DNA from: a virus
DNA: 64,000 bases
Strand: one strand, 5' to 3'
Virus record (IMG/VR): IMGVR_UViG_3300029231_000002
Location: 7,518-71,517 of that record
Part shown: piece by piece, positions 30,875 through 63,144 of the stretch
Layout: every line of letters starts with the position of its first letter
Numbering within the stretch: the stretch's first letter is position 1
The notes under the pieces: generated by a model
What the model was told of the DNA's origin: nothing
The model's input: the letters and a program-made list of their open reading frames with translations, nothing else
The model's database searches: none
Position numbers and translations under genes: made by a program

Positions 30875-32533
30875 TTATATAATATAATTTAAATGACTGG
30901 ACCATTCTGTGCCATATTTCATATCCCATTTTGTTATGCCCTCAATGTACTCAGATAAAAACGACCAGTTACCCAGCCATTCTGGTTTATCATTGGGCAA
31001 CATATACTGTTTCTGAATCCCCTCTTTGTACCAGGGATCATTAGCTAAGGGATTAAATGTGTCATCACTCCATAAGAATGGAATACTATTTACTTTCGGC
31101 ATTTTTTTATGTATTACTCGTACCTGATCTTCTCTTACTAATGAAATGGAAGTCATCTGGTAGCCAGCGTCTGGGTTATAGTATTCAGACATTGTATTAT
31201 CATTACTTAAATTTACAACATGACCATATCTGCAGGTCAAGTTTGGACCTCTGTTTCTGAATGCATCAAATGTAAACGAAGGAATCATAGGGAAAACAAG
31301 GTTGTACAAAGGTTTCCTGTGTGTAAAACTATTATACAATTCGTGTATTAACCAATTTAAAATAGCGACAAAATCTCCAGGCGACGCATACTCCTGTTGT
31401 ACCATACTCTTATCTTTATATAGAGGCTTTAGTACACGATAATACAGGTTTGCATAGATACCCTCAGCAAAACTACATAAAGAGTTTAAAACATTGAGAT
31501 CTTCATTTAACATTTTCCGTAAATCGTGAGACCACATTGGACCTGGGATAATCGGATTATCAAATAGATAAGGGACATCCTTGTTACCACGATGATTCTT
31601 CGCATATACAACATTTTGTCCTATTTTAATAGAATTCGCTAAATCTAACCATTTGTAGTATAAACATTCCTCCAGTACTTTTACATTGTCAGGACAACGT
31701 GAGTCATTGAGTTCTTTAAGAATATTAGTAACATATAAACGAGATAATAAAAGCATTCCATATAAACCTTTAATTTTTCTCATTAAATTCTCTCTAGGAT
31801 AGGGAACTGCATCTGTGAAAACATTGTGCGAAATCACATAAAATATTTCAGTGTAATGATTGTTTAAAATCCATGATCCAGAATCAACCATATAAGATGT
31901 TGATTCCATCGTCCTTTCATCCATTCCTAAAATAGTATTTATTACATCTAAAAGGTTAGTATTGCATATAAGCAGATATCCAGGAGCATAGGGTATACTA
32001 TATTTTCTAGATTTTAATTCCTCTATGATATTAGTTGACCAATCATTATGAGTATCATAGGGTGTAATACTTAACAGAGTTTCCTTAAAATCGATATCCT
32101 TAAAATTAGAAATTGGTAAATCTGCTTCCCTAACCACATACATTATATTACTTTTAAGAATCATTGGTGTCGCTAGAATATAAAATAAATAATACATGTA
32201 AGATAGTTCATCTGGAAAATAACAGGGAATAGATAATCGACTCCCCCAAGAAAAATTCATTTTATTCTCATTGCGTTTAAAAAGTTTTTCCAGTACATCC
32301 CTATATCGGGGTCTACCATTTCTGATATATATAAAATCAGAACCCTTACCAAAATATAAACGTATAAACGTGGAAGCAAAACTGTTATTATTATGCCTAT
32401 AATCCCACTGTTGATTTAATAACCGTAATATTTTTTCGCTCTCATTCATAAATACATCTCCTTTTCTGTTAAAATATAGGCAGTTATACAAATGTCTACT
32501 ACCATTATACTTATACCAGCCACTGAAATTCAT
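30875..32533 (-). CDS. hypothetical large protein, first gene leftward of the origin-like region
   Basis: 552-aa ORF. Confidence 0.55.
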   Translation of the reverse strand: MNFSGWYKYNGSRHLYNCLYFNRKGDVFMNESEKILRLLNQQWDYRHNNNSFASTFIRLYFGKGSDFIYIRNGRPRYRDVLEKLFKRNENKMNFSWGSRLSIPCYFPDELSYMYYLFYILATPMILKSNIMYVVREADLPISNFKDIDFKETLLSITPYDTHNDWSTNIIEELKSRKYSIPYAPGYLLICNTNLLDVINTILGMDERTMESTSYMVDSGSWILNNHYTEIFYVISHNVFTDAVPYPRENLMRKIKGLYGMLLLSRLYVTNILKELNDSRCPDNVKVLEECLYYKWLDLANSIKIGQNVVYAKNHRGNKDVPYLFDNPIIPGPMWSHDLRKMLNEDLNVLNSLCSFAEGIYANLYYRVLKPLYKDKSMVQQEYASPGDFVAILNWLIHELYNSFTHRKPLYNLVFPMIPSFTFDAFRNRGPNLTCRYGHVVNLSNDNTMSEYYNPDAGYQMTSISLVREDQVRVIHKKMPKVNSIPFLWSDDTFNPLANDPWYKEGIQKQYMLPNDKPEWLGNWSFLSEYIEGITKWDMKYGTEWSSHLNYII

Positions 32534-32561
32534 TTTTTCCCGACGCCATCGACATAAACAT

Positions 32562-33103
32562 AAAGTGTAGACACTTTTATGTCGATAAACTAGCAGAATT
32601 AGAATGTCTGTCTACACTGTCTACAAATCATCTTTAAAAAGTGTAGACACTTTTTTGCTTATAATATAATATAAATTATATGATTGTCTACATGTCTACA
32701 CTTTTTTTAAGGTAGAGACACATGACGCGAGATTTTTTACATGTAAATAGTGTATACTATATATAAATAGTGTATACTAAATGAAAAATAAAAAATGAAG
32801 ATATATATAAGGGGGTCTACCCTGAAAAAAGTGTAGACATGTAGACAACGTGACATTTCATAGCACCGCGTCCTCAAAAAAGTGTCTACACTTTTTCAAA
32901 AAAATTTGTAGACAGGTGTAGACAACTTTGTGAACTATTTGTGAACTTTCTAGGTTTAATGCTGCCCGGAGGGGTGTAAAAACCTGGGAGCAAAGTGTAA
33001 CCACCGATGGCATCGACAGAATTAGAAACCTCCCGAGTTTTCTGTTTTTAGACACAATTATTTTGCACTGTTTTCTCGGCGAAAAAGTGTCTACACTTTT
33101 TGA
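32562..33103. repeat. iteron cluster: at least 9 copies of AAAGTGTAGACAC in both orientations plus tandem half-sites (TGTCTACA with 9-10 bp spacing), an AT-rich segment and a 16-bp direct repeat AAATAGTGTATACTAA x2
   Basis: Motifs and positions read directly from the sequence. Confidence 0.6.
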
Positions 33104-33302
33104 AAGTATTGTGTACTCAGCGTTTTGCGAAGGGAGGCATTGTAAAACGTCGATAAACGTGGATATTTAAGAGATATGGACATTTTAAGAATCTAGTGGA
33201 CACTTGTGGTTAAAAAGTTAACACTTTTATGTAAACTGAATTAAAGATTGTAATGTTTACAACTTCACAATTATTTTACATTTATATTTATCAACAACAC
33301 AT

Positions 33303-33715
33303 GTGGATAACTGTGTCCTATAGCATAAAGCAATGGGTCTCGTTGTTTTTACTTGCTACTCCGAGTGTAACATTTAATAAAAGTGTAACATTTGTTACAT
33401 TGTTAACCTGTGGATAACTCATTTTCAAGGTTTACACTTTTTATCATTTTTTATCAAAACAAATGTCCACAGGTTCAAAATATAACAAATATGTCGATGA
33501 CATGCTGTGAATGATGTGTAAACCTGTTTCTATTTTACCCTGTGGATAAGCTGTGGATAAGCTGTGGATAACTTTTAAAAATCTGTGGATAAGTACATTT
33601 GTTTTTCACTGTCTAAAGATTATTCCCAAAAATATCCACAAGTTATCCACATATTTATCCACAGGGAACAGTGAGTCACCATGCGGTCTAAGACCACTTA
33701 TCCACATTATCCACA
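33303..33715. promoter_or_regulatory. cluster of 11 perfect DnaA boxes (TTATCCACA/TGTGGATAA) plus near-matches: candidate DnaA-dependent origin or DnaA-titrating element
   Basis: Boxes at about 33303, 33409, 33541, 33553, 33565, 33584 (TGTGGATAA) and 33643, 33655, 33698, 33707 (TTATCCACA), with a near-match at 33632. Four are in tandem at 12-bp spacing. Confidence 0.6.
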
Positions 33716-33825
33716 GCCCCTACTACTACTGCTTTTAAAAGATTATATATTTTCCTAGTAATAGAAAACCTTACACACGTGCGTAGGTTCCAAAAACAAA
33801 AAACTTTTTGATTTCGCAATTTAGG

Positions 33826-33855
33826 TTGACTTGGTTTAGGTTCGTATGATATACT
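33826..33855 (+). promoter_or_regulatory. sigma-A-type promoter for the rightward tail operon (-35 TTGACT, 18-nt spacer, -10 TATACT)
   Basis: Read directly. 60 nt upstream of the first plus-strand gene. Confidence 0.45.
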
Positions 33856-33914
33856 TTAGGTACAGCTTCTGGAACTCCCCTTAACACCTGGCTGTTTTAT
33901 CCAAAACTTTAAAT

Positions 33915-34151
33915 ATGAAAGGCGGTAAGATCATGACAACCGAACAAATCACAAACATTGTACCAGACATTATCACAGTATATGGGCTCACAAAAGTCCA
34001 CAAAGATCTCGTTGAAAGCATTACTGATGAAGGTACTACGCTTTTGCTGACCATTAAGTTTAACGATGCCTTGATGAAAATCCGTATCCTGAAAGATAAT
34101 CCCAATATTGGTGTACGGGTTGACGACCATACTGACGAGGTGACTCTGTAA
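33915..34151 (+). CDS. hypothetical protein
   Basis: 78 aa. First gene of the rightward block. Confidence 0.5.
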   Translation: MKGGKIMTTEQITNIVPDIITVYGLTKVHKDLVESITDEGTTLLLTIKFNDALMKIRILKDNPNIGVRVDDHTDEVTL

Positions 34152-50543: not shown

Positions 50544-51308
50544 ATGGTTAGACCTAAGTTAGTCGGGTTCCAAGAGGGTAAAGTTGGCCTTAAGGCATCT
50601 AATCAATATTCTGATTCCGATTTGGAACTTTGGCGTAAATATAAACAAGGTAATATTCAAGCTAAATGGGATTTATTGAAAAAATTCCATGGTGTCATTG
50701 TAAGCAATGCCAGAAAGCTTAGCAATGTACGGCCGTACTCTGTTGTAGAAGCAGAGCTTAAAGAACTTACGTTGAAAGCCTTTGATACTTATAATCCTGC
50801 AATGGGAGCCAAGTTATCAACGCATGTAATCAATACTTACAAAAAAGTAAGCCGTGAAAATATCAGTAATCAACATGCCATCCGTATTCCGGAAAATGTA
50901 CACTTTAAGTTTCGACCTATCACTGAGGCTACGGAATACCTGTCGGAGGCTCTTAATAGAGAGCCAACTCACCAGGAGATAGCAGAGTTTACTGGGTGGT
51001 CAGTGCCGAAAGTTATTGACGCTACTACCAGGCTTCGTCGTGAACTGGTAGAGAGTAAACAGACGTTTGATCCAGGGATACATGAAACTGATCCTACTGA
51101 ACAAGCGTTATACTATGCTTACCATGTGCTTGATAATCCTGGTAAATATATACTTGAGCATACAACTGGTTATGGCGGCAAAGTAGAATTGCCTGACTCC
51201 AAAATCAGGACTTACTTAAAACTTACACCACATATGTATAATAAAAAGAAAAACGAAGTTATCGGAGTTGTACGAGAAGCTCTTAATACAGCGTCCGAAG
51301 GCTTCTAA
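50544..51308 (+). CDS. sigma-70-family RNA polymerase sigma factor
   Basis: KLSTHVINTYKKVSRENISNQHAIRIPENVHFKF...EALNREPTHQEIAEF aligns with SigA region 2.4-3 (KFSTYATWWIRQAI...IRIPVHMVE...LGREPTPEEIAE). Confidence 0.7.
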   Translation: MVRPKLVGFQEGKVGLKASNQYSDSDLELWRKYKQGNIQAKWDLLKKFHGVIVSNARKLSNVRPYSVVEAELKELTLKAFDTYNPAMGAKLSTHVINTYKKVSRENISNQHAIRIPENVHFKFRPITEATEYLSEALNREPTHQEIAEFTGWSVPKVIDATTRLRRELVESKQTFDPGIHETDPTEQALYYAYHVLDNPGKYILEHTTGYGGKVELPDSKIRTYLKLTPHMYNKKKNEVIGVVREALNTASEGF

Positions 51309-56547: not shown

Positions 56548-57068
56548 ATAATATAGCAATAAATGATATTGCTAATAAAGATGCTTTAGGTATCTGTTCA
56601 GGATCGAAACTTATCGGTAGAGTAGGTTTTAAGTTGAAAGATGCAGAGGGTAATGTAGTTCAGGAAGGTAAAGTACCTAATAATATCGTATTGGGTATTA
56701 GGTACCCAATTATAAAACTATTAGGCGGCTGGGGGACTGATTCAGCAGATCTTCCGTTTGTTCGCCAATTAGCATTGGGAACCGGTGATACTGCAGTGAC
56801 TATCGCAGATGAACAACTTGACAGTGAATTATCAGGTTCTCGTAAATTAACCGCTACTGTTCCTACAATTGCGGATGATGGCTTAAGCCTTACATTTTCG
56901 TTCCTGTATGACATGGTAGACGATGCAGTAGATAATCAGGATATTAAAGAGATGGGCTTATTTACTACTGATGGTACAATGATAGCTCGTACTACAGTTG
57001 GGTTATGGCGTAAAACTCCTGGGTTATATTTTGAAGTCTACTGGACTATTGGCTATCAAAAACAATAA
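56544..57068 (+). CDS. tail fibre or baseplate-associated protein (unassigned)
   Basis: 174 aa. Last gene of the rightward block. Confidence 0.5.
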   Translation: MNNIAINDIANKDALGICSGSKLIGRVGFKLKDAEGNVVQEGKVPNNIVLGIRYPIIKLLGGWGTDSADLPFVRQLALGTGDTAVTIADEQLDSELSGSRKLTATVPTIADDGLSLTFSFLYDMVDDAVDNQDIKEMGLFTTDGTMIARTTVGLWRKTPGLYFEVYWTIGYQKQ

Positions 57069-57080
57069 CTAAAAAAAAGA

Positions 57081-57241
57081 AAACCCCGAAAAGTCTTAAC
57101 TACCTATAACACGCCCGATCATGCATGGCTGCCGGATCCGAAGTTCCTGGTTGGTTTTTAAGCTGTAAGCTTAAAAATAGGAAGACGACAATGAACTCAT
57201 TGTCAAACTCTGTTATAGGTAGTTAGGGCGTTTCGGGGTTT
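57081..57241. terminator. 160-bp quasi-palindrome: 31-bp inverted arms (AAACCCCGAAAAGTCTTAACTACCTATAACA / TGTTATAGGTAGTTAGGGCGTTTCGGGGTTT) enclosing about 95 nt with internal small hairpins. Acts at least as a bidirectional terminator (T8 run on minus side)
   Basis: Arms compared base by base (about 28 of 31). T-run TTTTCTTTTTTTT follows on the minus strand. Confidence 0.5.
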
Positions 57242-57247
57242 AATTAC

Positions 57248-57398
57248 TTTCATCTTATCTGACCTCCAGAAATTGGAGAAACGTTGATGGGAGTCGAACG
57301 TTAGGAAGCATGTGTTATATGTATAATATTAGTTATACATTAGGACATAACATAAGGAGATGCTAACGAAATATTTCTGGAGGTCAAATAAGATGAAA
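57248..57398. repeat. second 150-bp quasi-palindrome: 26-bp near-perfect inverted arms (TTTCATCTTATCTGACCTCCAGAAAT / ATTTCTGGAGGTCAAATAAGATGAAA) around a 96-nt imperfectly self-complementary core
   Basis: Read directly. The internal ATGTATA...TATACAT hairpin sits at the centre. Confidence 0.5.
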
Positions 57399-57834
57399 AT
57401 AAAGTATCTTGATATTATTAAGACTACCTAAGTAGTCCCCATGCGATTATACGGTCCCGTCGTTTTGGCGGATGAGGAGGTATAACGCGATGTCACGGGT
57501 TGTTTTCATAGGTTTATGACTGCCGTCTAAACCATAAGAAAAAACCATTAAGAACTCTTAATGAATCTCGACTACCTAGGCAGTCTTAATAATATCAAGA
57601 TAATAAAATACAGTATCCCATGTTGGCGCTATAATTAGTAATATCTTTCCTTACCGTTATCTATCCTATAATTTCTTATAGGAAGCGAGCATGTGACCAA
57701 CGGTACACAACCGCAATTGGGCCAGATGTTATTACTATTATTTATTTTTATTCCTAGAACTCTCGGAATGAAAATTATAACACATGAGATACTGTATTTA
57801 TAAATAGAAATAATATCTAATATTATTCCTACAG

Positions 57835-57847
57835 ATTACTTATACCA
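57835..57847 (-). promoter_or_regulatory. conserved extended -10 motif copy 6 (TGGTATAAGTAAT), 8 nt beyond the stop of 57856..58905, pointing into the non-coding region
   Basis: Motif identity. No minus-strand gene lies downstream. Confidence 0.4.
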
Positions 57848-57855
57848 AATTTTTT

Positions 57856-58905
57856 TTAATTAAGCGCATACGAATAATCAACAATTTTAGTAAGATCATC
57901 CTTATATTTTTCTAGGGATTCACTGTCGATCTTATTGAAATCAAAGATATCTATGAGCAAATATACCAGTTTATGTCTGAACGTTGTGTACCAACGAAGG
58001 TGCATGGGCTTTTCAAAATCTACTGCTGTAATTGAATAACTGTTTGCTAACATCATAAGTCCATAAACCTTAATCGGGGTCAACTCAGCCTTTAAATTTA
58101 TAAGTTTGAAGTATTCAGTACACGATTCGGATACCGATTTACAAAAAGCAATAGTTTCCATACCATCATTTGCGTATTTAAGTATGCACCCATGGTTTTC
58201 ATAGGATTCTTTGCTGGCATAGATACGACTGTCATCAGTTAGATACTCTTGACACTTTGGATACCAAACAGGATTATCTTTCCGATATTCTAACTCGGAA
58301 AGGACAGCATCATTGACTTCATCAATATCAGGGTCTAAATACTCTGGTGTTTTAGTTACCATTTCTTTAAAATAAGAACTCTGCGCTTTCCATAACGGAT
58401 CTGTTAAAAATTCGTCTTCAGTGTCAAACAAATCATATTCATAGGTATCATTTAAATAACTAACAGAATCACTATAATCTACGAGGCATAGATCTTTGAT
58501 AAGTTTAGAATTAACTTTATCTGACATAATATCTTGCAAAAGATCTGTGAAGTGACACCCCAATTCATAGATTATTTCATCTGCATTTCGAGTATCTTGA
58601 ATTGATGAATATATTAAATTCATGAATTCTGATAGATAATAGGTAACTTCAGAGGGAGATAACGGAGGTCCCATTGGTTGTTCCAACGCTTTACATCTAA
58701 TTTCCCCTTTATTATGATGGCAAGTAAAAGGCGCTAAGTCCAATAATGTATTCTCGTCTTCTTTTTGCGCCCTTTGTTTTGCCTTTTCTTTTTCTTCTTT
58801 TTCTCGTTCAACTTTTTCTTGTGCTAATTTTAACATTTCTGCGTTGACTATAATAGGTCCACTCTCCAACGCCTTTGTATCTATTTTGCTAACAGGTTCA
58901 GCCAT
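57856..58905 (-). CDS. hypothetical protein, third gene of the RT module
   Basis: 349 aa with a charged coiled-coil-like N-terminus. The start abuts the RT stop. Confidence 0.55.
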   Translation of the reverse strand: MAEPVSKIDTKALESGPIIVNAEMLKLAQEKVEREKEEKEKAKQRAQKEDENTLLDLAPFTCHHNKGEIRCKALEQPMGPPLSPSEVTYYLSEFMNLIYSSIQDTRNADEIIYELGCHFTDLLQDIMSDKVNSKLIKDLCLVDYSDSVSYLNDTYEYDLFDTEDEFLTDPLWKAQSSYFKEMVTKTPEYLDPDIDEVNDAVLSELEYRKDNPVWYPKCQEYLTDDSRIYASKESYENHGCILKYANDGMETIAFCKSVSESCTEYFKLINLKAELTPIKVYGLMMLANSYSITAVDFEKPMHLRWYTTFRHKLVYLLIDIFDFNKIDSESLEKYKDDLTKIVDYSYALN

Positions 58906-60363
58906 TTAGAACCCCTCCCTTTTAAATATGTCGATCATATCCTCTACAGTTTTTTGGCGATGCTTATCCATGATAGTTTTTAACTTTAGGGTTTTATCTG
59001 GATCTACTATACTGAGAAATGCCAGCTTGCCATTAAACACCCGTTTACTCAAGGGTTTCACCATTAAATTTCTAAATGATGATTTAAAGAATTTATTGTG
59101 AGCCGCATACTTTTTAACTAACGCGATTCTAGCAGGATGTATATTATACATTACTTCTCGTATACCAAGCTGTTTTCCAATCAGCATCGCTTCAACTCGC
59201 AGGTCATTATATTTACTCCGTGGATACTTTACTTCCGAGTTAGATATATGTAATCCCAATACAGTTTTCACCGATTGTACATATTTATACATTGGTTTAA
59301 CTATAAATTCTAAATTTGGATATTTCGTATGAACCAGGTCAGTGATACGTGTTAATGTTTCTGGCAATTCATCCAATGGAATTTTGGTATCCTTAGAGAA
59401 CGTGAACTCAATGACTTTGGCAGATATTGTTCCACGTAAGTCTGGCATCTGTAAATAGTTTGTTATAATCCCGATAATTTTAGCAGACTGAGTAGATGGC
59501 AGATATGTAACTTTTGTTTTTATACGGAAGCCAGTTACAATAGGATAAGCTTTATCACGCATAATTCCAACTTTCTTATAATTCATCCGAAATGGATGTA
59601 CTACCTCACTAAGTTCGCTGATAAAGTCCTGACATTCTGCATCACTTTTGTTACCTGAAAAGCATAAATCATCTGCATATCGAGTATATGTAAACCCAAA
59701 CTTTTCTGCTAGTTCCGCTACTCTGCAATCAAAATCATAATTAAGGATTATAGTAAGAATTGGAGAAGTAGGAGCTCCCTGCGGTAGTACCCCATCTAAA
59801 CAAACAAGTTTAACGATTCTACTCAGAACATCCAGGGGTAAATTTGTATTAAAATTTTTTGCAATTAAATGCTCAAGCCCTTTTTGTACATATAAGGATG
59901 TGTGAGCTGGGAAAAAGTCTTTTAAATCTACATGTACAAGTACCCCGTCATTAGCAACTGTTTTAGCTGCATCTACAATGTTTTTACCTTGCATAAATGC
60001 GTAATTACACGGATGTTTAGGAAACTGATTAAAGAATTCCATTAGCTTTAATTGTAGTTCCTTTAAAGCTTCGGTAGGGGCATTGATTTCTCTAAGTTTA
60101 ATACCAAAAGAATAGGGAACGATTTTCTTAGTATTCTTATCGATATAAAACCTGGAATAACAGGCTTTTGCAGTAACGTCTGTTATAGACGTTAGTATTT
60201 CAGGAGTTACTCCCATATAACTTGAAAAAGAATTATAATCAATAAAGGGCAATTCGGATAATGTAAGTACTCGATTGCCACAGATACTTTCTAATTGACT
60301 ATGCCGCCCAGTTAAAGTATTATAATACTCACGTACAAGCTTTGGAAACCTGTTAATATCCAT
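58906..60363 (-). CDS. reverse transcriptase, retron-like (group II/retron/Abi clade) with about 150-aa C-terminal extension
   Basis: RT motifs VHVDLKDFFP (A), LPQGAPTSPILTIILN (B'), FTYTRYADDLCFSG (C), and PIVTGFRI (VTG triplet characteristic of retron RTs). QGxxxSP argues against a DGR-type RT. Confidence 0.85.
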   Translation of the reverse strand: MDINRFPKLVREYYNTLTGRHSQLESICGNRVLTLSELPFIDYNSFSSYMGVTPEILTSITDVTAKACYSRFYIDKNTKKIVPYSFGIKLREINAPTEALKELQLKLMEFFNQFPKHPCNYAFMQGKNIVDAAKTVANDGVLVHVDLKDFFPAHTSLYVQKGLEHLIAKNFNTNLPLDVLSRIVKLVCLDGVLPQGAPTSPILTIILNYDFDCRVAELAEKFGFTYTRYADDLCFSGNKSDAECQDFISELSEVVHPFRMNYKKVGIMRDKAYPIVTGFRIKTKVTYLPSTQSAKIIGIITNYLQMPDLRGTISAKVIEFTFSKDTKIPLDELPETLTRITDLVHTKYPNLEFIVKPMYKYVQSVKTVLGLHISNSEVKYPRSKYNDLRVEAMLIGKQLGIREVMYNIHPARIALVKKYAAHNKFFKSSFRNLMVKPLSKRVFNGKLAFLSIVDPDKTLKLKTIMDKHRQKTVEDMIDIFKREGF

Positions 60364-61190
60364 TATACATTCTCCTTTTCTACAGGTTCATCTTTGAGAT
60401 ATGTGTTTGTATACCATTCCTCAAAGTCTTTATTACTTTTAAACTTTTGTAAAATGGGAAATTCGTTGCTGTCGATATCCAACCCTGAAATAATAGTATT
60501 TGCGTATAACTGTTGGATATCTTTATTGATTTCCTCTTTTGATATCGGATTTAGGGTAAAGAAGCATTTATAATCGATATCATAATTAATACATAAAGTA
60601 TCTTCTTTATGAGCTTGATGTTTACATAGATTACACTTATTCTTTATTTCTATACCATTAAGGATCAGCTTATGTTCTACTGGAAGATGCATATAGTATT
60701 TTAAGGACTCAATATCTTCTGTATCCTTTAATAGAGTAACATATGCATTTCCGAAAACTAGGTTTGAAACAAATACATTAGCATCAGTTATTAGACTCAT
60801 AACAGTACTAATAGGCATAGGGGAGGTATCAAATAACGGAACTGTACAAAATACGGGTTCAGTATTTTCGTCTGTAAAAACCTGAAGGTCATTAAAAATT
60901 AACCGTTTAGAAGAGGAAGTATAAACTTCTAAAACACCATAGGTACATTCTTTTAATTTAGTACAAAAGTCCCTGAATTCATCTGCACTAAATTCCCATA
61001 TAAGATAATTCTTAAAAATGGGGGTCAACGGTTTAAAAGAAAAATAAGCGCATCTTGCAATTACACCTGGTACGATTTGCAGCAAGACACCGATGTTGAG
61101 AGCATTAGGTCCCCAGTAAACAACAGTGTTGCTTTTGTCTACTATAGTTCCTTGTCTCTCTTGAGTTTCCATAGAACTCATGGCAGTCAC
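60363..61190 (-). CDS. hypothetical protein, first gene of the RT module
   Basis: 275 aa. The stop overlaps the RT start (ATGA-type coupling). The likely start is the internal ATG (MSSMETQ), which has RBS AAAGGAA. Confidence 0.55.
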   Translation of the reverse strand: MTAMSSMETQERQGTIVDKSNTVVYWGPNALNIGVLLQIVPGVIARCAYFSFKPLTPIFKNYLIWEFSADEFRDFCTKLKECTYGVLEVYTSSSKRLIFNDLQVFTDENTEPVFCTVPLFDTSPMPISTVMSLITDANVFVSNLVFGNAYVTLLKDTEDIESLKYYMHLPVEHKLILNGIEIKNKCNLCKHQAHKEDTLCINYDIDYKCFFTLNPISKEEINKDIQQLYANTIISGLDIDSNEFPILQKFKSNKDFEEWYTNTYLKDEPVEKENV

Positions 61191-61200
61191 ATTCCTTTCT

Positions 61201-61249
61201 TTTAATAAAAAATAAAAGACCCTGAAATCAATTGCTTGACTCAGGGTCT
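61201..61249 (-). terminator. rho-independent terminator (AAGACCCTGA-15 nt-TCAGGGTCTT then TTTTATTTTTTATT) immediately upstream of the RT-module RBS
   Basis: 10-bp perfect stem plus a T-run on the minus strand. Confidence 0.55.
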
Positions 61250-61497
61250 TCGGAGGATGGCCGCTCTGGTTTAGATTTGTGCACTAAAGTGAGATAGTGA
61301 ATAACACTTTGTAAGGGGATGATTATTTCTGCACAGGTTAGGACCGAGCGGCGTAGTCCTAAGAGAAGAAACCACCCCAATGAGGGCTGCATCTATAACA
61401 GTACTCTCCTAAAAGAAAACTGCGTTAGGGTACATCTCCCAGATGCGTGCCGTCAGCGCAGACTTACGTTTTCTTTAGAGGTTTGATATAGATATCT
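61201..61497 (-). ncRNA. candidate discrete leader/ncRNA unit (about 290 nt) between the promoter motif and the terminator, upstream of the RT module; possible retron msr-msd-like template or regulatory leader
   Basis: Bounded by the extended -10 at 61504-61516 and the terminator. Contains hairpins AGGAC-N11-GTCCT and CATCT-GGG-AGATG, and a CTCTAAAGAAAAC / GTTTTCTTTTAGAG pairing. No ORF. Confidence 0.35.
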
Positions 61498-61503
61498 TCT
61501 CCA

Positions 61504-61516
61504 TATTACTTATACC
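61504..61516 (-). promoter_or_regulatory. conserved extended -10 motif copy 7 (TGGTATAAGTAAT), 20 nt downstream of the terminase stop
   Basis: Motif identity. Confidence 0.4.
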
Positions 61517-61536
61517 ATTTTGATCTCTATAACATT

Positions 61537-63144
61537 TTACTCATATTCTTCAGGTATTTCACCGTTAGGTGGAGTGAAATCATCTAACTGATGTTTGAAT
61601 GCCCTTGGATTTTTAGCAAAGTATCTAGCACCTAAACGTAAATATACTAGCGTATGTGCAAAGTCATCAGGAACATTGATATCCCTGATTATCTGGAATG
61701 CACGAATCCTATCATTATATTCACAAGATAAGGTTAATAGATCCTCTGCGAAAGGTTTCATAACCTTATATGCAGGGAAAATCATTCTTTGGCTTTTAAT
61801 ATCTAAAACAACGCCTGCCATTGCACGAGTACGATCTGTAACCCAGGATCTGGATTTATCGTTAAATTCCATACCTACAGTTACACGCGCTTTATATTCT
61901 ATTTCGTATACTTTTACATTCGGGAAATGTTTACGAAGCACAGAGTTCGCTAAACTACCGCCACCACGGTCACATACTATTAAAACTGGAGTGGCAGAAG
62001 CTATTAGCTTAACGATTTGATCCATCTGGGATAATGGGTCCTGATCTACTGGGAATTTCTGGCTAAAAAATACACGCAGTTTATCCTGCGGATCCAGGCC
62101 CCCAATAGTTACTACGGTATGCGTGTTTCCACCAAGTACACCCCAGTCTACTGTAGCAACTACAGTATATATTCCCCATTCACCTTTTCTATTAGTAGTA
62201 AATTCTGTTGTTTCAGGATCACAGCACGCAACGACATCTGATTCAACCAGAAGTTTTGCACCGTTATCATAGGAATAACCAAGACATTCATTGAAAAACT
62301 TTGCCTCACTATATAATGGGTTATTTAATTTTTCGATAAGACGGGACCAGGGAATACCTGTTTGAGGAACACCTGCGATCATTGCCTGAGAAATGTGATA
62401 CCCAACAAAATCCCTGTCAGGATATTTGCCTACATATTCACCAGTTGCTACGTCCAAGGGTTTACCACAGTATTTACATATAAGACCATCTTCACCTAGA
62501 TTATCTACTACGATTGGTACATTCCACTTTGTACAACCCTTGCATTTCATTGCCCAATAGTGTTGGGTAGTTTGTTCCCAAAGCTTTTGAATACAATTAT
62601 CAAATGTTTTAGGAGTACCGCAAAAGACCATACGTTTCGGAGTTTTACGTGCTGTACATTCTTCTATTACAGGGATGTTATCCAAAATGATATCCTGTAC
62701 CTCGTCAAGATACACAGAATTTGCGGATATACCACGGATACCATCGGCTGTATGATAGCAGCTACGTAAATACATCATAGATCCGTTTAAAAACTCTTTA
62801 GCCTGGGTTTGCATAGTACACGAAGAATTAACATAATAATTCTTTATAATCGGAGAATTATTTATCATTGGGTTAAGTTTATCATTATTAAATTGTGATA
62901 CCTGATTATCTCGAGGAGCTACGTATAATGATCTCCAGAATGGTTTGCTGGCAAGTTCTGTAATACTGGTTGCACCAATAGTAGTTGATTTTGCTACCTG
63001 GCGACCAGTCATAAGAAGCAATTTTTCTGAGTCTGTATTCATTATAGTAACCATGTATGGTAACCCATCAAGACTAAAAGGTTTACCATCCAAGTATAAT
63101 ATCTTTTGGGAGAAATCAGAGGGGCTTGTTTCCAGTGTATACAT
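61537..63144 (-). CDS. terminase large subunit
   Basis: Walker A-like LMTGRQVAKST, Walker B VYLDEV, and a C-terminal nuclease-like region. 535 aa. RBS GAAGGAG. Confidence 0.8.
   Translation of the reverse strand: MYTLETSPSDFSQKILYLDGKPFSLDGLPYMVTIMNTDSEKLLLMTGRQVAKSTTIGATSITELASKPFWRSLYVAPRDNQVSQFNNDKLNPMINNSPIIKNYYVNSSCTMQTQAKEFLNGSMMYLRSCYHTADGIRGISANSVYLDEVQDIILDNIPVIEECTARKTPKRMVFCGTPKTFDNCIQKLWEQTTQHYWAMKCKGCTKWNVPIVVDNLGEDGLICKYCGKPLDVATGEYVGKYPDRDFVGYHISQAMIAGVPQTGIPWSRLIEKLNNPLYSEAKFFNECLGYSYDNGAKLLVESDVVACCDPETTEFTTNRKGEWGIYTVVATVDWGVLGGNTHTVVTIGGLDPQDKLRVFFSQKFPVDQDPLSQMDQIVKLIASATPVLIVCDRGGGSLANSVLRKHFPNVKVYEIEYKARVTVGMEFNDKSRSWVTDRTRAMAGVVLDIKSQRMIFPAYKVMKPFAEDLLTLSCEYNDRIRAFQIIRDINVPDDFAHTLVYLRLGARYFAKNPRAFKHQLDDFTPPNGEIPEEYE

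What the first reader, a model, noticed from the sequence alone, without database searches (positions are those of the whole stretch)
57075..57850. 790-bp ORF-free region built from two adjacent 150-160-bp quasi-palindromes, with a promoter copy pointing into it
The two elements are an arm pair of 31 bp and one of 26 bp, each enclosing about 95 nt. They sit back to back. One ends in a T8 run and acts as a bidirectional terminator. The 13-nt promoter motif copy 6 sits right after the stop of the last RT-module gene and can only transcribe this region. Long quasi-palindromes of this size are unusual for simple terminators. Candidates are an RT template or other ncRNA, a lytic origin or packaging-related structure, or a MITE-like insertion. 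Two short plus-strand ORFs with perfect SDs inside (MKIKYLDIIKTT, MSRVVFIGL) may be leader-peptide-like or fortuitous.
Basis: seen in the sequence. Interest (0 to 1): 0.6.

Follow-up and report, generated by a model that had tools for sequence, protein, structure and literature searches.

The report
Phage retron-like structured RNA array
The gene-free stretch is a conserved array of four long-stemmed structured RNA units, three with a hypervariable GC-rich insert, that follows a retron-type reverse transcriptase operon in a family of large gut phages; it looks like a natural multi-unit "retron array", which I could not find described.

Summary
They are half of a four-unit array filling the 787-nt gap (57069-57855). 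The array has its own phage promoter copy and ends in a stem plus T8, all on the minus strand, which is the reverse transcriptase (RT) strand.

Units 1, 2 and 4 share one plan. An 18-40 bp closing stem encloses a hairpin with loop GANUUC and a U-rich linker. Units 2 and 4 add a second hairpin. A GC-rich segment follows that is hypervariable between near-identical phages.

The same module recurs in about eight divergent lineages (RT 34-100% identical): terminase, conserved 206-275-aa protein, retron-clade RT, variable accessory gene, then an array of 1 to at least 8 units. Evidence for an RT-strand RNA:
- Stem covariation.
- 55 G·U pairs against 7 A/C mismatches in the closing stems.
- Lower folding energy on that strand in 8 of 8 loci.

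No Rfam family matches, and the held literature describes no natural retron array.

Best reading (about 0.55): tandem retron-like ncRNAs whose variable segments are RT templates. Transcription and cDNA synthesis are untested. The variable segments do not fold like canonical msd hairpins, and their targets are unknown. Origin, MITE, plain-terminator and leader-peptide readings are not supported.

The parts
57837..57847 (-). Promoter-like motif TGGTATAAGTA (extended -10 type) that fires into the array. It is followed by ..TGTAG.
   Evidence: There are 8 copies in the window, all on the minus strand and all in gaps upstream of minus-strand genes (2.5 expected). The same motif precedes the array in L002, L005, L080, L085, L091-93, L095 and L097.
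57804..57832 (-). 5' leader hairpin (GTAGGAATAATATT...ATATTATTTCTAT) at the start of the predicted transcript.
   Evidence: Present in the RNAfold result. An analogous GTAG...CTAC hairpin follows the promoter in L002, L082, L085 and L091.
57606..57799 (-). Unit 1 (194 nt). It has an 18-24 bp closing stem and hairpin HP1 with loop GAGUUC (loop at 57757-57762). Its variable core lies at about 57660-57715.
   Evidence: Inverted repeat I5, fold, segment identities against relatives.
57405..57602 (-). Unit 2 (198 nt). It has a 33-bp closing stem, HP1 at 57545-57564 (loop GAGUUC at 57552-57557), a U-rich linker, a second hairpin HP2, and a hypervariable 68-nt segment at 57438-57505 (53% GC).
   Evidence: In RNAalifold on 6 orthologues, 4 stem columns show compensatory changes and G·U intermediates, and 1 of 198 stem cells is broken.
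57244..57402 (-). Unit 3 (159 nt), a different 'type B' unit. It has a 30-bp closing stem and an AT-rich interior with two conserved hairpins. It has no GANUUC hairpin and no GC-rich insert.
Evidence: L002 has a comparable odd unit.
57081..57241 (-). Unit 4 (161 nt). It has a 30-bp closing stem, HP1 at 57186-57205 (loop GAGUUC at 57193-57198), HP2 with triloop UAC, and a hypervariable 44-nt segment at 57111-57154 (61% GC).
57072..57080 (-). U-run (T8 on the minus strand) directly after the closing stem of unit 4. This is the predicted 3' end of the array transcript.
   Evidence: Sequence. A T-run follows the last unit on the RT strand in the lineages where the 3' end was examined (L002, L005, L080, L082, L085, L091).
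57856..58905 (-). 349-aa accessory gene downstream of the RT. It has no detectable family, and this slot differs between lineages.
   Evidence: No Pfam, PHROG, PADLOC or NCBIfam hit. There is no BLASTP similarity between the downstream genes of different lineages. The AlphaFold model is unusable (pLDDT 40).
58906..60363 (-). 485-aa reverse transcriptase of the retron clade, with a C-terminal extension of about 200 aa.
60363..61190 (-). 275-aa protein upstream of the RT. It is the conserved partner of the RT in all lineages.
   Evidence: BLASTP links the 206-275-aa upstream proteins of WIN, L080, L002, L082, L085, L091 and L004. It is an orphan family: 4 hits among 1.84 billion representatives.
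61190..61537 (-). Structured leader of the RT operon. It holds a promoter copy (61507-61517), a long stem around a conserved core, and a terminator-like hairpin before the 275-aa gene. It may belong to the same system.
   Evidence: No Rfam match.

Best explanation
The gap encodes one minus-strand non-coding transcript of about 760 nt. It starts at its own copy of the phage promoter TGGTATAAGTA and ends at the stem plus U8 of the last unit. It folds into a tandem array of four autonomous units.

Units 1, 2 and 4 share one scaffold:
- a long closing stem, playing the role of the a1/a2 inverted repeats of a retron ncRNA;
- a short junction, usually starting with G;
- hairpin HP1 with the conserved loop G-A-N-U-U-C;
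- a U-rich linker;
- in units 2 and 4, hairpin HP2, in unit 4 with a U-R-C triloop;
- a 40-85 nt GC-rich segment that is hypervariable between close relatives.

Proposed mechanism (inferred):
1. The long double-stranded stems let a host RNase III-type enzyme separate the units.
2. The retron-clade RT, with its conserved 275-aa partner, binds the HP1/HP2 scaffold of each unit.
3. The RT reverse-transcribes the adjacent variable segment. One RT therefore makes several different small cDNAs (msDNA-like).
4. These cDNAs work with the lineage-specific accessory protein in phage-host or phage-phage conflict.

What is shown: the array, its unit anatomy, the strand, its conservation and its linkage to the RT module. 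What is inferred: transcription, processing, RT binding, cDNA synthesis and biological role.
For: Anatomy: four back-to-back long-stem units, folding z-score -18.

Transcription signals on the RT strand: a promoter copy and a stem plus T8. The same bracket occurs in relatives.

Strand:
- The RT strand folds better in 8 of 8 loci.
- Closing stems hold 55 G·U pairs against 7 A/C mismatches.
- GANUUC hairpins occur only on the RT strand.

Selection on pairing:
- HP1 is 93.6% paired against 59.5% in shuffles, with 91 double-sided changes against 25.8 and slid controls at or below 0.23.
- A unit's own arms pair at 15 of 16 positions; foreign arms pair at 6.6 of 16.
- In orthologue comparisons, 36 of 48 changed stem pairs keep pairing.
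- Unit 2 orthologues show 4 compensatory columns and 1 broken cell of 198.

Specificity: the strict HP1 hairpin occurs twice in 128 kb of window (both strands counted), both times in the array. It occurs 7 non-redundant times in 1.63 Mb of other retron-type RT loci, never in tandem.

Linkage to the RT: the module terminase, upstream protein, RT, accessory gene and array occurs in WIN/L080, L002/L006, L082-85, L091-94/L003 and L095. In the short-RT subfamily it occurs in L096/L097, and L005 carries the RT-to-array part of it. Unit number runs from 1 to at least 8, and the genes downstream of the array differ.

RT identity: retron clade by HMMs, by PDB sequence search and by fold.

Retron-like layout: a conserved 5' scaffold is followed by a variable 3' segment next to the 3' arm. 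Scaffold identity is 84-100% while variable segments fall to 34-52% between phages whose flanking genes are 78-87% identical.

Feasibility: engineered arrays of retron ncRNAs are processed by one RT (bioRxiv 10.1101/2023.07.17.549397).
Against: - There is no expression or cDNA data.
- The variable segments are no more self-structured than shuffles (mean z -0.22). Canonical retron msd regions are long hairpins.
- A G follows the 5' arm in most units of the WIN, L080, L002 and L091-93 lineages. The junction is A-rich in L082/L085, so a fixed branching G is not evident.
- The array lies downstream of the RT operon under its own promoter. Retron ncRNAs usually lie upstream (my recollection).
- Unit 3 lacks the HP1 scaffold.
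- The RT operon has its own conserved structured leader, which could be the true RT substrate.
- All carriers are related phages. Co-occurrence of RT and array is therefore partly shared ancestry, although the gene following the array varies.
- No Rfam family matches at the curated gathering thresholds, and only weak, unrelated hits (plant miRNA, snoRNA and sRNA models) appear at E up to 10.
Confidence: 0.55

Rival explanations
1. The array is an RT-associated RNA but not a template. The units would be scaffold-plus-guide or scaffold-plus-sensor RNAs. The conserved hairpins bind the RT, the 275-aa protein or the accessory protein. The unstructured GC-rich segment works through base pairing (antisense or guide against host or rival-phage nucleic acid) or as a decoy. 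No cDNA is made from it.
For: - The variable segments are GC-rich (46-74%) in an AT-rich scaffold and are not self-folded (mean z -0.22), as expected for an accessible pairing region.
- They are hypervariable between near-identical phages.
- One segment (unit 4) has a 23-nt exact match to a gene of an unrelated 224-kb viral contig.
Against: - Four other 20-mers gave no external match.
- There are no matches in INPHARED phages or PLSDB plasmids.
- The single 23-nt match is near chance level and does not extend across the segment.
- A retron-clade polymerase with an intact YADD motif sits next to an RNA with retron-like flanking repeats, which suggests templating.
Confidence: 0.2
2. The units are RT-independent structured RNAs. 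They could be phage small RNAs, RNase III processing or stability elements, or elaborate terminators separating the convergent tail-gene and RT transcription units. They would sit next to the RT only because of conserved synteny.
For: - The array lies between convergent operons in most lineages.
- The last unit plus U-run is terminator-like.
- All carriers are related phages, so linkage could be inherited.
Against: - The array stays with the RT module when the downstream neighbours change. In L005 same-strand genes follow. In L097 tRNA-like sequences follow (not checked with ARAGORN)..
- Its own promoter copy points into it.
- 700-2400 nt of conserved scaffold and hypervariable inserts is far more than termination needs.
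- An HP1-like hairpin also sits in the leader of the RT operon in L091-94, L003 and L095, tying the motif to the RT genes.
Confidence: 0.15
3. The region is a DNA-level element. The inverted repeats would act as cruciforms or single-strand hairpins of a replication origin or packaging site near the terminase gene.
For: - The region is long, ORF-free and rich in inverted repeats, and it lies three genes from the terminase large subunit.
- Both strands fold almost equally well in the window itself.
Against: - G·U against A/C asymmetry of 55:7, and lower RT-strand energy in 8 of 8 loci.
- Strand-specific loop motifs.
- Promoter and terminator bracketing.
- No direct repeats or iterons.
- The cumulative GC-skew minimum of the window is at 33-34 kb, not here.
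Confidence: 0.06
4. The region is a MITE-like or other mobile insertion, or the short + strand ORFs are leader peptides.
For: Terminal inverted repeats of MITE-like size. Two short ORFs with Shine-Dalgarno-like sequences.
Against: - There are no other copies in the 64-kb window.
- The location is fixed in all relatives.
- The arms differ in sequence between units.
- ORF1 has a premature stop and ORF2 loses its start codon in L080/L081. Both lie inside stem arms or variable segments on the non-RNA strand.
Confidence: 0.02

Closest known systems
Bacterial retrons (retron RT + msr-msd ncRNA + effector), e.g. Eco1/Ec86, Eco2/Ec67, Eco7/Ec78
   Same: - The RT belongs to the retron clade by sequence and fold.
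- The ncRNA unit is closed by flanking inverted repeats. It has conserved 5' stem-loops and a variable 3' part next to the 3' repeat.
- The accessory gene differs between lineages, as retron effectors differ between retron types.
   Different: - It is carried by large (about 120-165 kb) phage genomes next to the terminase gene, not by bacterial defence islands.
- There are 1 to at least 8 units per RT instead of one.
- The array lies downstream of the operon under its own promoter.
- The variable part is not a hairpin.
- The RT carries a C-terminal extension of about 200 aa and reads DAAKT where retron RTs have NAxxH (motif recalled from memory).
- It has an extra conserved 206-275-aa partner protein.
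- No Rfam family matches at gathering threshold.
Engineered retron ncRNA arrays ('multitrons')
   Same: Several retron ncRNA units sit in tandem on one transcript and are served by one RT, each unit with a different template (10.1101/2023.07.17.549397).
   Different: Those are synthetic constructs. That paper does not mention natural arrays in the passages I searched. Here the arrangement is natural, conserved and phage-borne.
Diversity-generating retroelements (DGRs) of phages
   Same: A phage-encoded RT lies next to tail or baseplate genes, together with a non-coding RNA and locally hypervariable sequence.
   Different: - No template/variable repeat pair exists in the window.
- Differences between relatives are not adenine-specific and include indels.
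- The hypervariable sequence is in the RNA gene itself, not in a protein gene.
DRT2/DRT9-type defence RTs with structured template ncRNAs
   Same: An RT is paired with a dedicated structured ncRNA that holds a short template region.
   Different: - They use a single ncRNA with no array of distinct variable segments.
- They are bacterial, not phage-encoded.
CRISPR arrays and phage mini-arrays
   Same: Both are tandem units that combine a constant part with a variable part that turns over quickly between close relatives.
   Different: - There are no direct sequence repeats. The constant part is conserved mostly as structure and each closing stem has its own sequence.
- There are no cas genes.
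- Only one borderline external match was found for a variable segment.

Membership tests
Retron | Reverse transcriptase of the retron clade | tested here: met
   [not shown]
Retron | Adjacent ncRNA bounded by inverted repeats (a1/a2) that pair | tested here: met
   Each unit is closed by an 18-40 bp stem. Pairing is maintained by compensatory and G·U changes. The position is atypical: downstream of the operon with its own promoter.
Retron | Conserved msr stem-loops that the RT recognises | tested here: inconclusive
   HP1 (loop GANUUC) is conserved across about eight lineages with strong stem covariation and is specific to the arrays. HP2 with a U-R-C triloop occurs in about half of the units. 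Binding by the RT was not tested.
Retron | msd region forms a long self-complementary hairpin | tested here: not met
   The 22 variable segments fold no better than shuffles (mean z -0.22; 6 of 22 below -1).
Retron | Conserved branching guanosine at the end of a1, and a 2'-5' branched msDNA | tested here: inconclusive
   The 5' arm is followed by G (mostly GA) in most units of the WIN, L080, L002 and L091-93 lineages but by A-runs in L082/L085. The branch and the msDNA cannot be tested with these tools.
Retron | One ncRNA per RT | tested here: not met
   The window has 4 units. Relatives have from 1 (L004) to at least 8 (L097).
Retron | Associated effector of a known retron type (I-XIII) | tested here: not met
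   The neighbouring 275-aa and 349-aa proteins have no PADLOC, Pfam, NCBIfam or PHROG family. Both are orphans.
Retron | Match to a curated RNA family model (Rfam) | tested here: not met
   There are no matches at gathering threshold in the window. Only weak matches to unrelated families (plant miRNA, snoRNA, sRNA) appear at E up to 10 in 56900-58000.
Diversity-generating retroelement | Template repeat with a near-identical variable repeat in a target gene, differing at adenines | tested here: not met
   No part of the gap has a second copy in the 64-kb window. Differences between relatives are not A-specific. The rest of the roughly 160-kb genome was not available.
Diversity-generating retroelement | RT of the DGR clade | tested here: not met
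   [not shown]
Intrinsic (bidirectional) terminator | Short GC-rich hairpin followed by a U-run, on both strands | tested here: inconclusive
   On the minus strand, the unit 4 stem (CCCCGAAA.../...TTTCGGGG) is followed by TTTTCTTTTTTTT. On the plus strand the run is only TTTAATTACTTT. The consensus scan called neither. Three of the four units have no U-run.
MITE or other mobile insertion | Multiple dispersed copies with terminal inverted repeats and target-site duplications | tested here: not met
   There are no other copies in the window. The position is the same in all relatives. No match in INPHARED phages.
Replication origin or pac site | Iterons or direct repeats, an AT-rich unwinding region, a skew inflection | tested here: not met
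   Direct repeats are short two-copy matches only. The cumulative GC-skew minimum lies at 33-34 kb. Function was not tested.
CRISPR-like array | Regularly spaced direct repeats of conserved sequence | tested here: not met
   No direct-repeat family spans the units. Arms of different units do not match.

The most novel reading that the evidence does not exclude
The variable segments are programmable, spacer-like cassettes. Each unit would be reverse-transcribed by the phage RT into a short single-stranded DNA, or used directly as RNA, that is complementary to a sequence of the host or of a competing phage. It would direct the accessory proteins against that target. This would be a phage-borne, RT-based targeting array working like a CRISPR array but built on a retron scaffold. 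The hints are the hypervariability, the GC content foreign to the phage, the lack of self-structure, and one 23-nt exact sense-strand match to a gene of an unrelated 224-kb virus.
Probability: 0.1. Interest if true: 0.95.

Novelty: new variant of a known kind. Interest (0 to 1): 0.8.

Why it matters
As far as I could find, retrons are known as bacterial defence systems (some of them prophage-borne) with one RT and one ncRNA.

This finding shows a retron-clade RT in large gut phages, possibly of Lachnospiraceae. It is permanently coupled to a tandem array of 1 to at least 8 structured RNA units with fast-evolving inserts.

If the units are templates, this is a natural multiplexed retron: one enzyme making several different DNAs. 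Synthetic biologists had to engineer that arrangement. It would also mean phages use retron chemistry for their own ends, whether counter-defence, competition between phages, or something unknown.

The compact scaffold could be directly useful for multiplexed in-cell DNA production. It consists of a closing stem, the GANUUC hairpin and the U-R-C hairpin, and it tolerates arbitrary 40-85 nt inserts.

The hypervariable inserts also give a concrete handle for asking what retron-type cDNAs recognise.

Tried and rejected
- **Rfam.** The whole window at gathering thresholds, and the gap at E up to 10, gave nothing meaningful. There are no tRNAs.
- **Nucleotide similarity.** blastn of the gap and of 14 kb around it against INPHARED phages found no match. 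Variable segments against INPHARED found only a 22/24 match to Blautia phage Montmirail. That match falls on a Shine-Dalgarno-like GGAGG stretch and is probably chance. Against PLSDB plasmids there was nothing.
- **DGR idea.** No second copy of any part of the gap exists in the window.
- **Restriction-decoy idea.** GATCC/ATCCG is enriched in the variable segments. The phage genome does not avoid GATC or GGATC, so I dropped the idea.
- **Protospacer idea.** Five exact 20-mer scans of IMG/VR gave only the arrays themselves plus one external 23-nt match. No further match exists in the 11 kb held of that contig.
- **Tandem-HP1 pattern scan of IMG/VR.** Apart from L100, which is the array of the contig that carries L003, it returned unrelated repeats.
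- **Accessory proteins.** A single-sequence AlphaFold model of the 349-aa protein was unusable (pLDDT 40). The 275-aa protein has only 4 relatives among 1.84 billion representatives.
- **Unit core alignment.** MAFFT alignment of the unit cores was too poor around HP2 to build a covariance model. I used loop-anchored alignments and direct counts instead.
- **Six-frame peptide search.** I considered spending the last large protein search on six-frame peptides of the variable segments. I decided against it because 10-23-aa peptides could not reach significance.
- **Literature.** Four topic searches found no description of natural retron ncRNA arrays or of this phage module. A fifth search found only the engineered multitron arrays. 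A sixth was rejected for a malformed term. One preprint that might be relevant (10.64898/2026.09.22.753630) could not be opened.
Full report
**The observation**

The stretch between the stop of the plus-strand 174-aa gene (57068) and the stop of the minus-strand 349-aa gene (57856) is 787 nt without a conserved ORF. One is 57081-57111/57211-57241 (31 nt). The other is 57248-57273/57373-57398 (26 nt). Each encloses 99 nt.

The repeat search also shows two more elements of the same kind, and larger ones. These are 57405-57437/57570-57602 (33-nt arms, 94% complementary, 132 nt between) and 57606-57623/57782-57799 (18-nt arms, 158 nt between). The four elements abut one another and fill the gap. 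The whole region folds with a z-score of -18 (minus strand) or -19 (plus strand) against dinucleotide shuffles.

**Context**

The minus-strand genes next to the gap are, in order of transcription:
- a terminase large subunit (61537..63144; GpA_ATPase in orthologues);
- a 275-aa protein (60363..61190);
- a 485-aa reverse transcriptase (58906..60363);
- a 349-aa protein (57856..58905).

On the other side, baseplate and tail genes converge on the gap.

The RT is of the retron clade:
- PADLOC retron RT models reach 4e-48, and NCBIfam retron St85 scores 1e-45.
- The best solved-structure sequence hits are all retron RTs.
- It has YADD and an additional C-terminal region of about 200 aa.

The motif TGGTATAAGTA occurs 8 times in the window (2.5 expected). 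All copies are on the minus strand and in gaps upstream of minus-strand genes. One copy (57847..57837) points into the gap, and another (61517..61507) precedes the RT operon. The minus strand of the gap ends with the stem of the last element followed by T8.

**Relatives**

Neither the gap nor the surrounding 14 kb matches any GenBank phage. A protein search with the RT found a family (P0001-P0027). I retrieved its genomic loci from IMG/VR, metagenomes, Logan/ENA assemblies and GTDB genomes. The carriers are mostly human-gut viral contigs of about 120-165 kb. One locus (L095) lies on a contig binned into an Acetatifactor (Lachnospiraceae) MAG.

In the lineages examined the order is terminase, a 195-275-aa protein, the RT, a variable accessory gene, then a long ORF-free stretch of 700-1040 nt (up to 2.4 kb in L097). 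RT identity to the window ranges from 34% to 100%. In L082-85 a few small genes separate the terminase from the rest. In L005 I did not identify the upstream genes.

The upstream protein is homologous across lineages. The downstream accessory proteins show no detectable similarity to each other.

**Anatomy of the array**

I folded each gap in the RT orientation with a 260-nt span limit. Each gives the same picture:
- the promoter motif followed by ..TGTAG and a leader hairpin;
- a tandem series of units;
- a U-run after the last unit.

A standard unit has these parts in order:
1. a long closing stem (18-40 bp);
2. a short junction, usually beginning with G;
3. hairpin HP1, a 6-9 bp stem with loop G-A-N-U-U-C (GAUUC in the short-RT subfamily);
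4. a U-rich linker, often UAUUCU;
5. hairpin HP2;
6. a 40-85 nt segment of 46-74% GC, set in a scaffold of 25-40% GC;
7. the 3' arm.

In 18 of 39 units HP2 is a perfect stem of 6 bp or more with a 3-nt loop, against 7.7% of shuffles. That loop is UGC or UAC in 14 of those 18.

In the window, units 1 (57606-57799), 2 (57405-57602) and 4 (57081-57241) follow this plan. In unit 1 the automatic parse did not resolve a separate HP2 or insert. Its variable core, at about 57660-57715, is taken from the comparison with relatives. Unit 3 (57244-57402) has the closing stem but a different, AT-rich interior.

Unit number is 1 in L004, 4 in the window, L002, L091-94 and L095, 5 in L082-85, 6-7 in L005, and at least 8 in L097.

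**Is it RNA, and on which strand?**

- The RT strand folds more stably than its complement in 8 of 8 loci, by 8-50 kcal/mol.
- In the closing stems there are 55 G·U pairs on the RT strand against 7 A/C mismatches. A/C mismatches are what G·U pairs on the other strand would look like.
- The strict HP1 hairpin (GANUUC loop, stem of at least 6 bp) occurs only on the RT strand of the arrays. The window has 2 hits in 128 kb (both strands counted), both in the gap. All hits in relatives' arrays are on the RT strand. Other retron-type RT loci have 7 non-redundant hits in 1.63 Mb, none in tandem.
- On a loop-anchored alignment of 33 distinct HP1 hairpins, 93.6% of cells pair, against 59.5% in shuffles. 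There are 91 double-sided changes against 25.8. The covariation score is 0.957, against 0.237 in shuffles and at most 0.23 for slid partners. The hairpins were picked by requiring 4 pairs next to the loop, so the inner pairs are partly ascertained. The outer pairs are not.
- The closing stems have unrelated sequences in different units, yet each pairs with its own partner (15 of 16 positions, against 6.6 of 16 for foreign arms).
- Between orthologous units of three lineage pairs, 36 of 48 changed stem pairs keep pairing, 19 of them by double changes.
- In unit 2 orthologues, RNAalifold finds 4 compensatory columns with G·U intermediates and one broken cell of 198 in the 33-bp stem.

Together with the promoter and U-run, this makes a minus-strand structured RNA the best-supported object. 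A DNA-level role does not explain the G·U asymmetry.

**The variable segments**

I compared the window with phages whose flanking genes are 97-100% identical. Arms and HP1 are 91-100% identical, but the unit 2 segment drops to 71-90% and the unit 4 segment to 73-91%.

Against L080 (flanking genes 78-87% identical), arms of the standard units stay at 85-100%. Unit 3 arms are 77-83%. The unit 2 and unit 4 segments fall to 52% and 34%, which is essentially replacement. Changes include indels and all base classes, so this is not DGR-type adenine mutagenesis.

The segments are not more self-structured than shuffles (mean z -0.22). This differs from the hairpin msd of canonical retrons. It suggests their information lies in primary sequence.

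They have no copy elsewhere in the window and no convincing match in INPHARED or PLSDB. Five exact 20-mer scans of IMG/VR returned only the arrays themselves, with one exception. A 23-nt exact match of the unit 4 segment lies in the sense strand of a 105-aa ORF in an unrelated 224-kb viral contig. I estimate about 0.1-0.2 chance hits per 20-mer scan, from a rough guess at the size of the collection. The match runs 3 nt beyond the seed but not across the segment. I treat it as an unresolved hint.

**Interpretation**

The layout has four elements: paired flanking repeats, conserved 5' stem-loops, a variable 3' part next to the 3' repeat, and a retron-clade RT nearby. That is the layout of a retron msr-msd RNA, multiplied in tandem. 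I therefore favour (about 0.55) a natural retron-like array in which one RT copies several different templates.

The steps beyond the RNA itself are inferred: processing at the long stems, RT binding to HP1/HP2, priming, cDNA synthesis and function.

Points against strict retron membership:
- The array position is downstream of the operon with its own promoter.
- There are several units per RT.
- The variable part is not a hairpin.
- A branching G is not fixed in all lineages.
- There is no known effector.
- No Rfam family matches.

The main rival (0.2) keeps the link to the RT module but sees the variable segment as a pairing or sensor region rather than a template. RT-independent RNAs (0.15), a DNA-level origin or pac element (0.06), and a MITE or leader peptides (0.02) are less likely. 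The two short plus-strand ORFs are broken in L080/L081.

**Novelty**

Four topic searches of the held literature found no natural retron ncRNA array and no description of this phage module. Engineered retron arrays ('multitrons') exist and show that one RT can serve arrayed ncRNAs. One recent preprint that might be relevant could not be read.

I class the finding as a new variant of a known kind (retron-type RT plus ncRNA). Its architecture is unprecedented as far as I could find, and it sits in a phage.

Noticed in passing
window 61190-61537 (minus strand): The 346-nt leader of the RT operon is itself a conserved structured element. It has a promoter copy, then a long stem (CTCTAAAGAAAAC / GTTTTCTTTTAGGAG) around a core (CTGCG..GGCACGCA..TGGG..CCC..CGCAG) shared with L080, L002, L082 and L085. 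It ends in a terminator-like hairpin with a T-run just before the 275-aa gene. There is no Rfam match. It could be an attenuator or a further substrate of the RT.
   Followed up: partly
L091:3567-3638, and the same position in L092-L094 and L003; L095:3576-4030: In these lineages the hairpin plus T-run that precedes the RT operon carries the same G-A-N-U-U-C loop as HP1 of the array units (10-bp stem in L091-94 and L003). This hints that the protein binding HP1 also regulates its own operon.
   Followed up: no
window 57111-57154 (unit 4 variable segment) and L099:2535-2557: There is a 23-nt exact match (TTCGGATCCGGCAGCCATGCATG) between the unit 4 variable segment and the sense strand of a 105-aa ORF in an unrelated 224-kb IMG/VR contig. 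It is close to chance expectation for the searches done. It is the only external match found for any variable segment.
   Followed up: partly
variable segments of units in the window, L080, L082, L085, L091-L093: ATCCG and GATCC(G) are over-represented in the variable segments. ATCCG occurs in 10 of 26 segments against 1.6 expected. GATCCG occurs in 7 against 0.4. Some segments are related, so the counts are inflated. GCATGG or GG(G/A) often ends the segment just before the 3' arm. The phage genome itself does not avoid GATC.
   Followed up: partly
window 57244-57402 (unit 3); L002:9047-9175 (unit 2 of L002): One unit per array in the window/L080 lineage and in L002 keeps the long closing stem but has an AT-rich interior without the GANUUC hairpin or a GC-rich insert. 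In the window lineage it contains two conserved hairpins (loops ACUAAU and ..ACUCCCAUC..). Its role is unknown.
   Followed up: no
L082:8891-8949 and L085:6476-6531: Between the promoter and the first unit, these lineages carry a GC-clamped hairpin with an unpaired pyrimidine-rich loop of 32-41 nt (e.g. UUCCCCCAUUCAUUGUUCACCAUCUUCUGCC...).
   Followed up: no
L007, L008, L010, L011, L014-L018 (about 360 nt downstream of a different retron-type RT): An identical 13-bp hairpin with a GAGUUC loop followed by TTTT sits downstream of an unrelated retron-type RT in viral contigs of about 14-47 kb. It may be only a terminator, or a distant cousin of HP1.
   Followed up: no
[not shown]
   Followed up: partly
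window 10051-61517, eight sites: All eight copies of TGGTATAAGTA are on the minus strand. The phage also encodes its own sigma-70-like factor on the plus strand (50544..51308). This suggests that two promoter classes divide the genome by strand.
   Followed up: no
window 32533-34151: A second large stretch without ORFs of 90 aa or more lies at the point where gene orientation and cumulative GC skew switch. It is a better candidate for an origin region than the finding's gap. I did not examine it.
   Followed up: no
L097:8040-9166: In the short-RT subfamily the array of at least 8 units appears to be followed by a cluster of tRNA-like sequences (GGTTCAAATCC / GGTTCGACTCC T-arm motifs). I did not check this with ARAGORN.
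   Followed up: no
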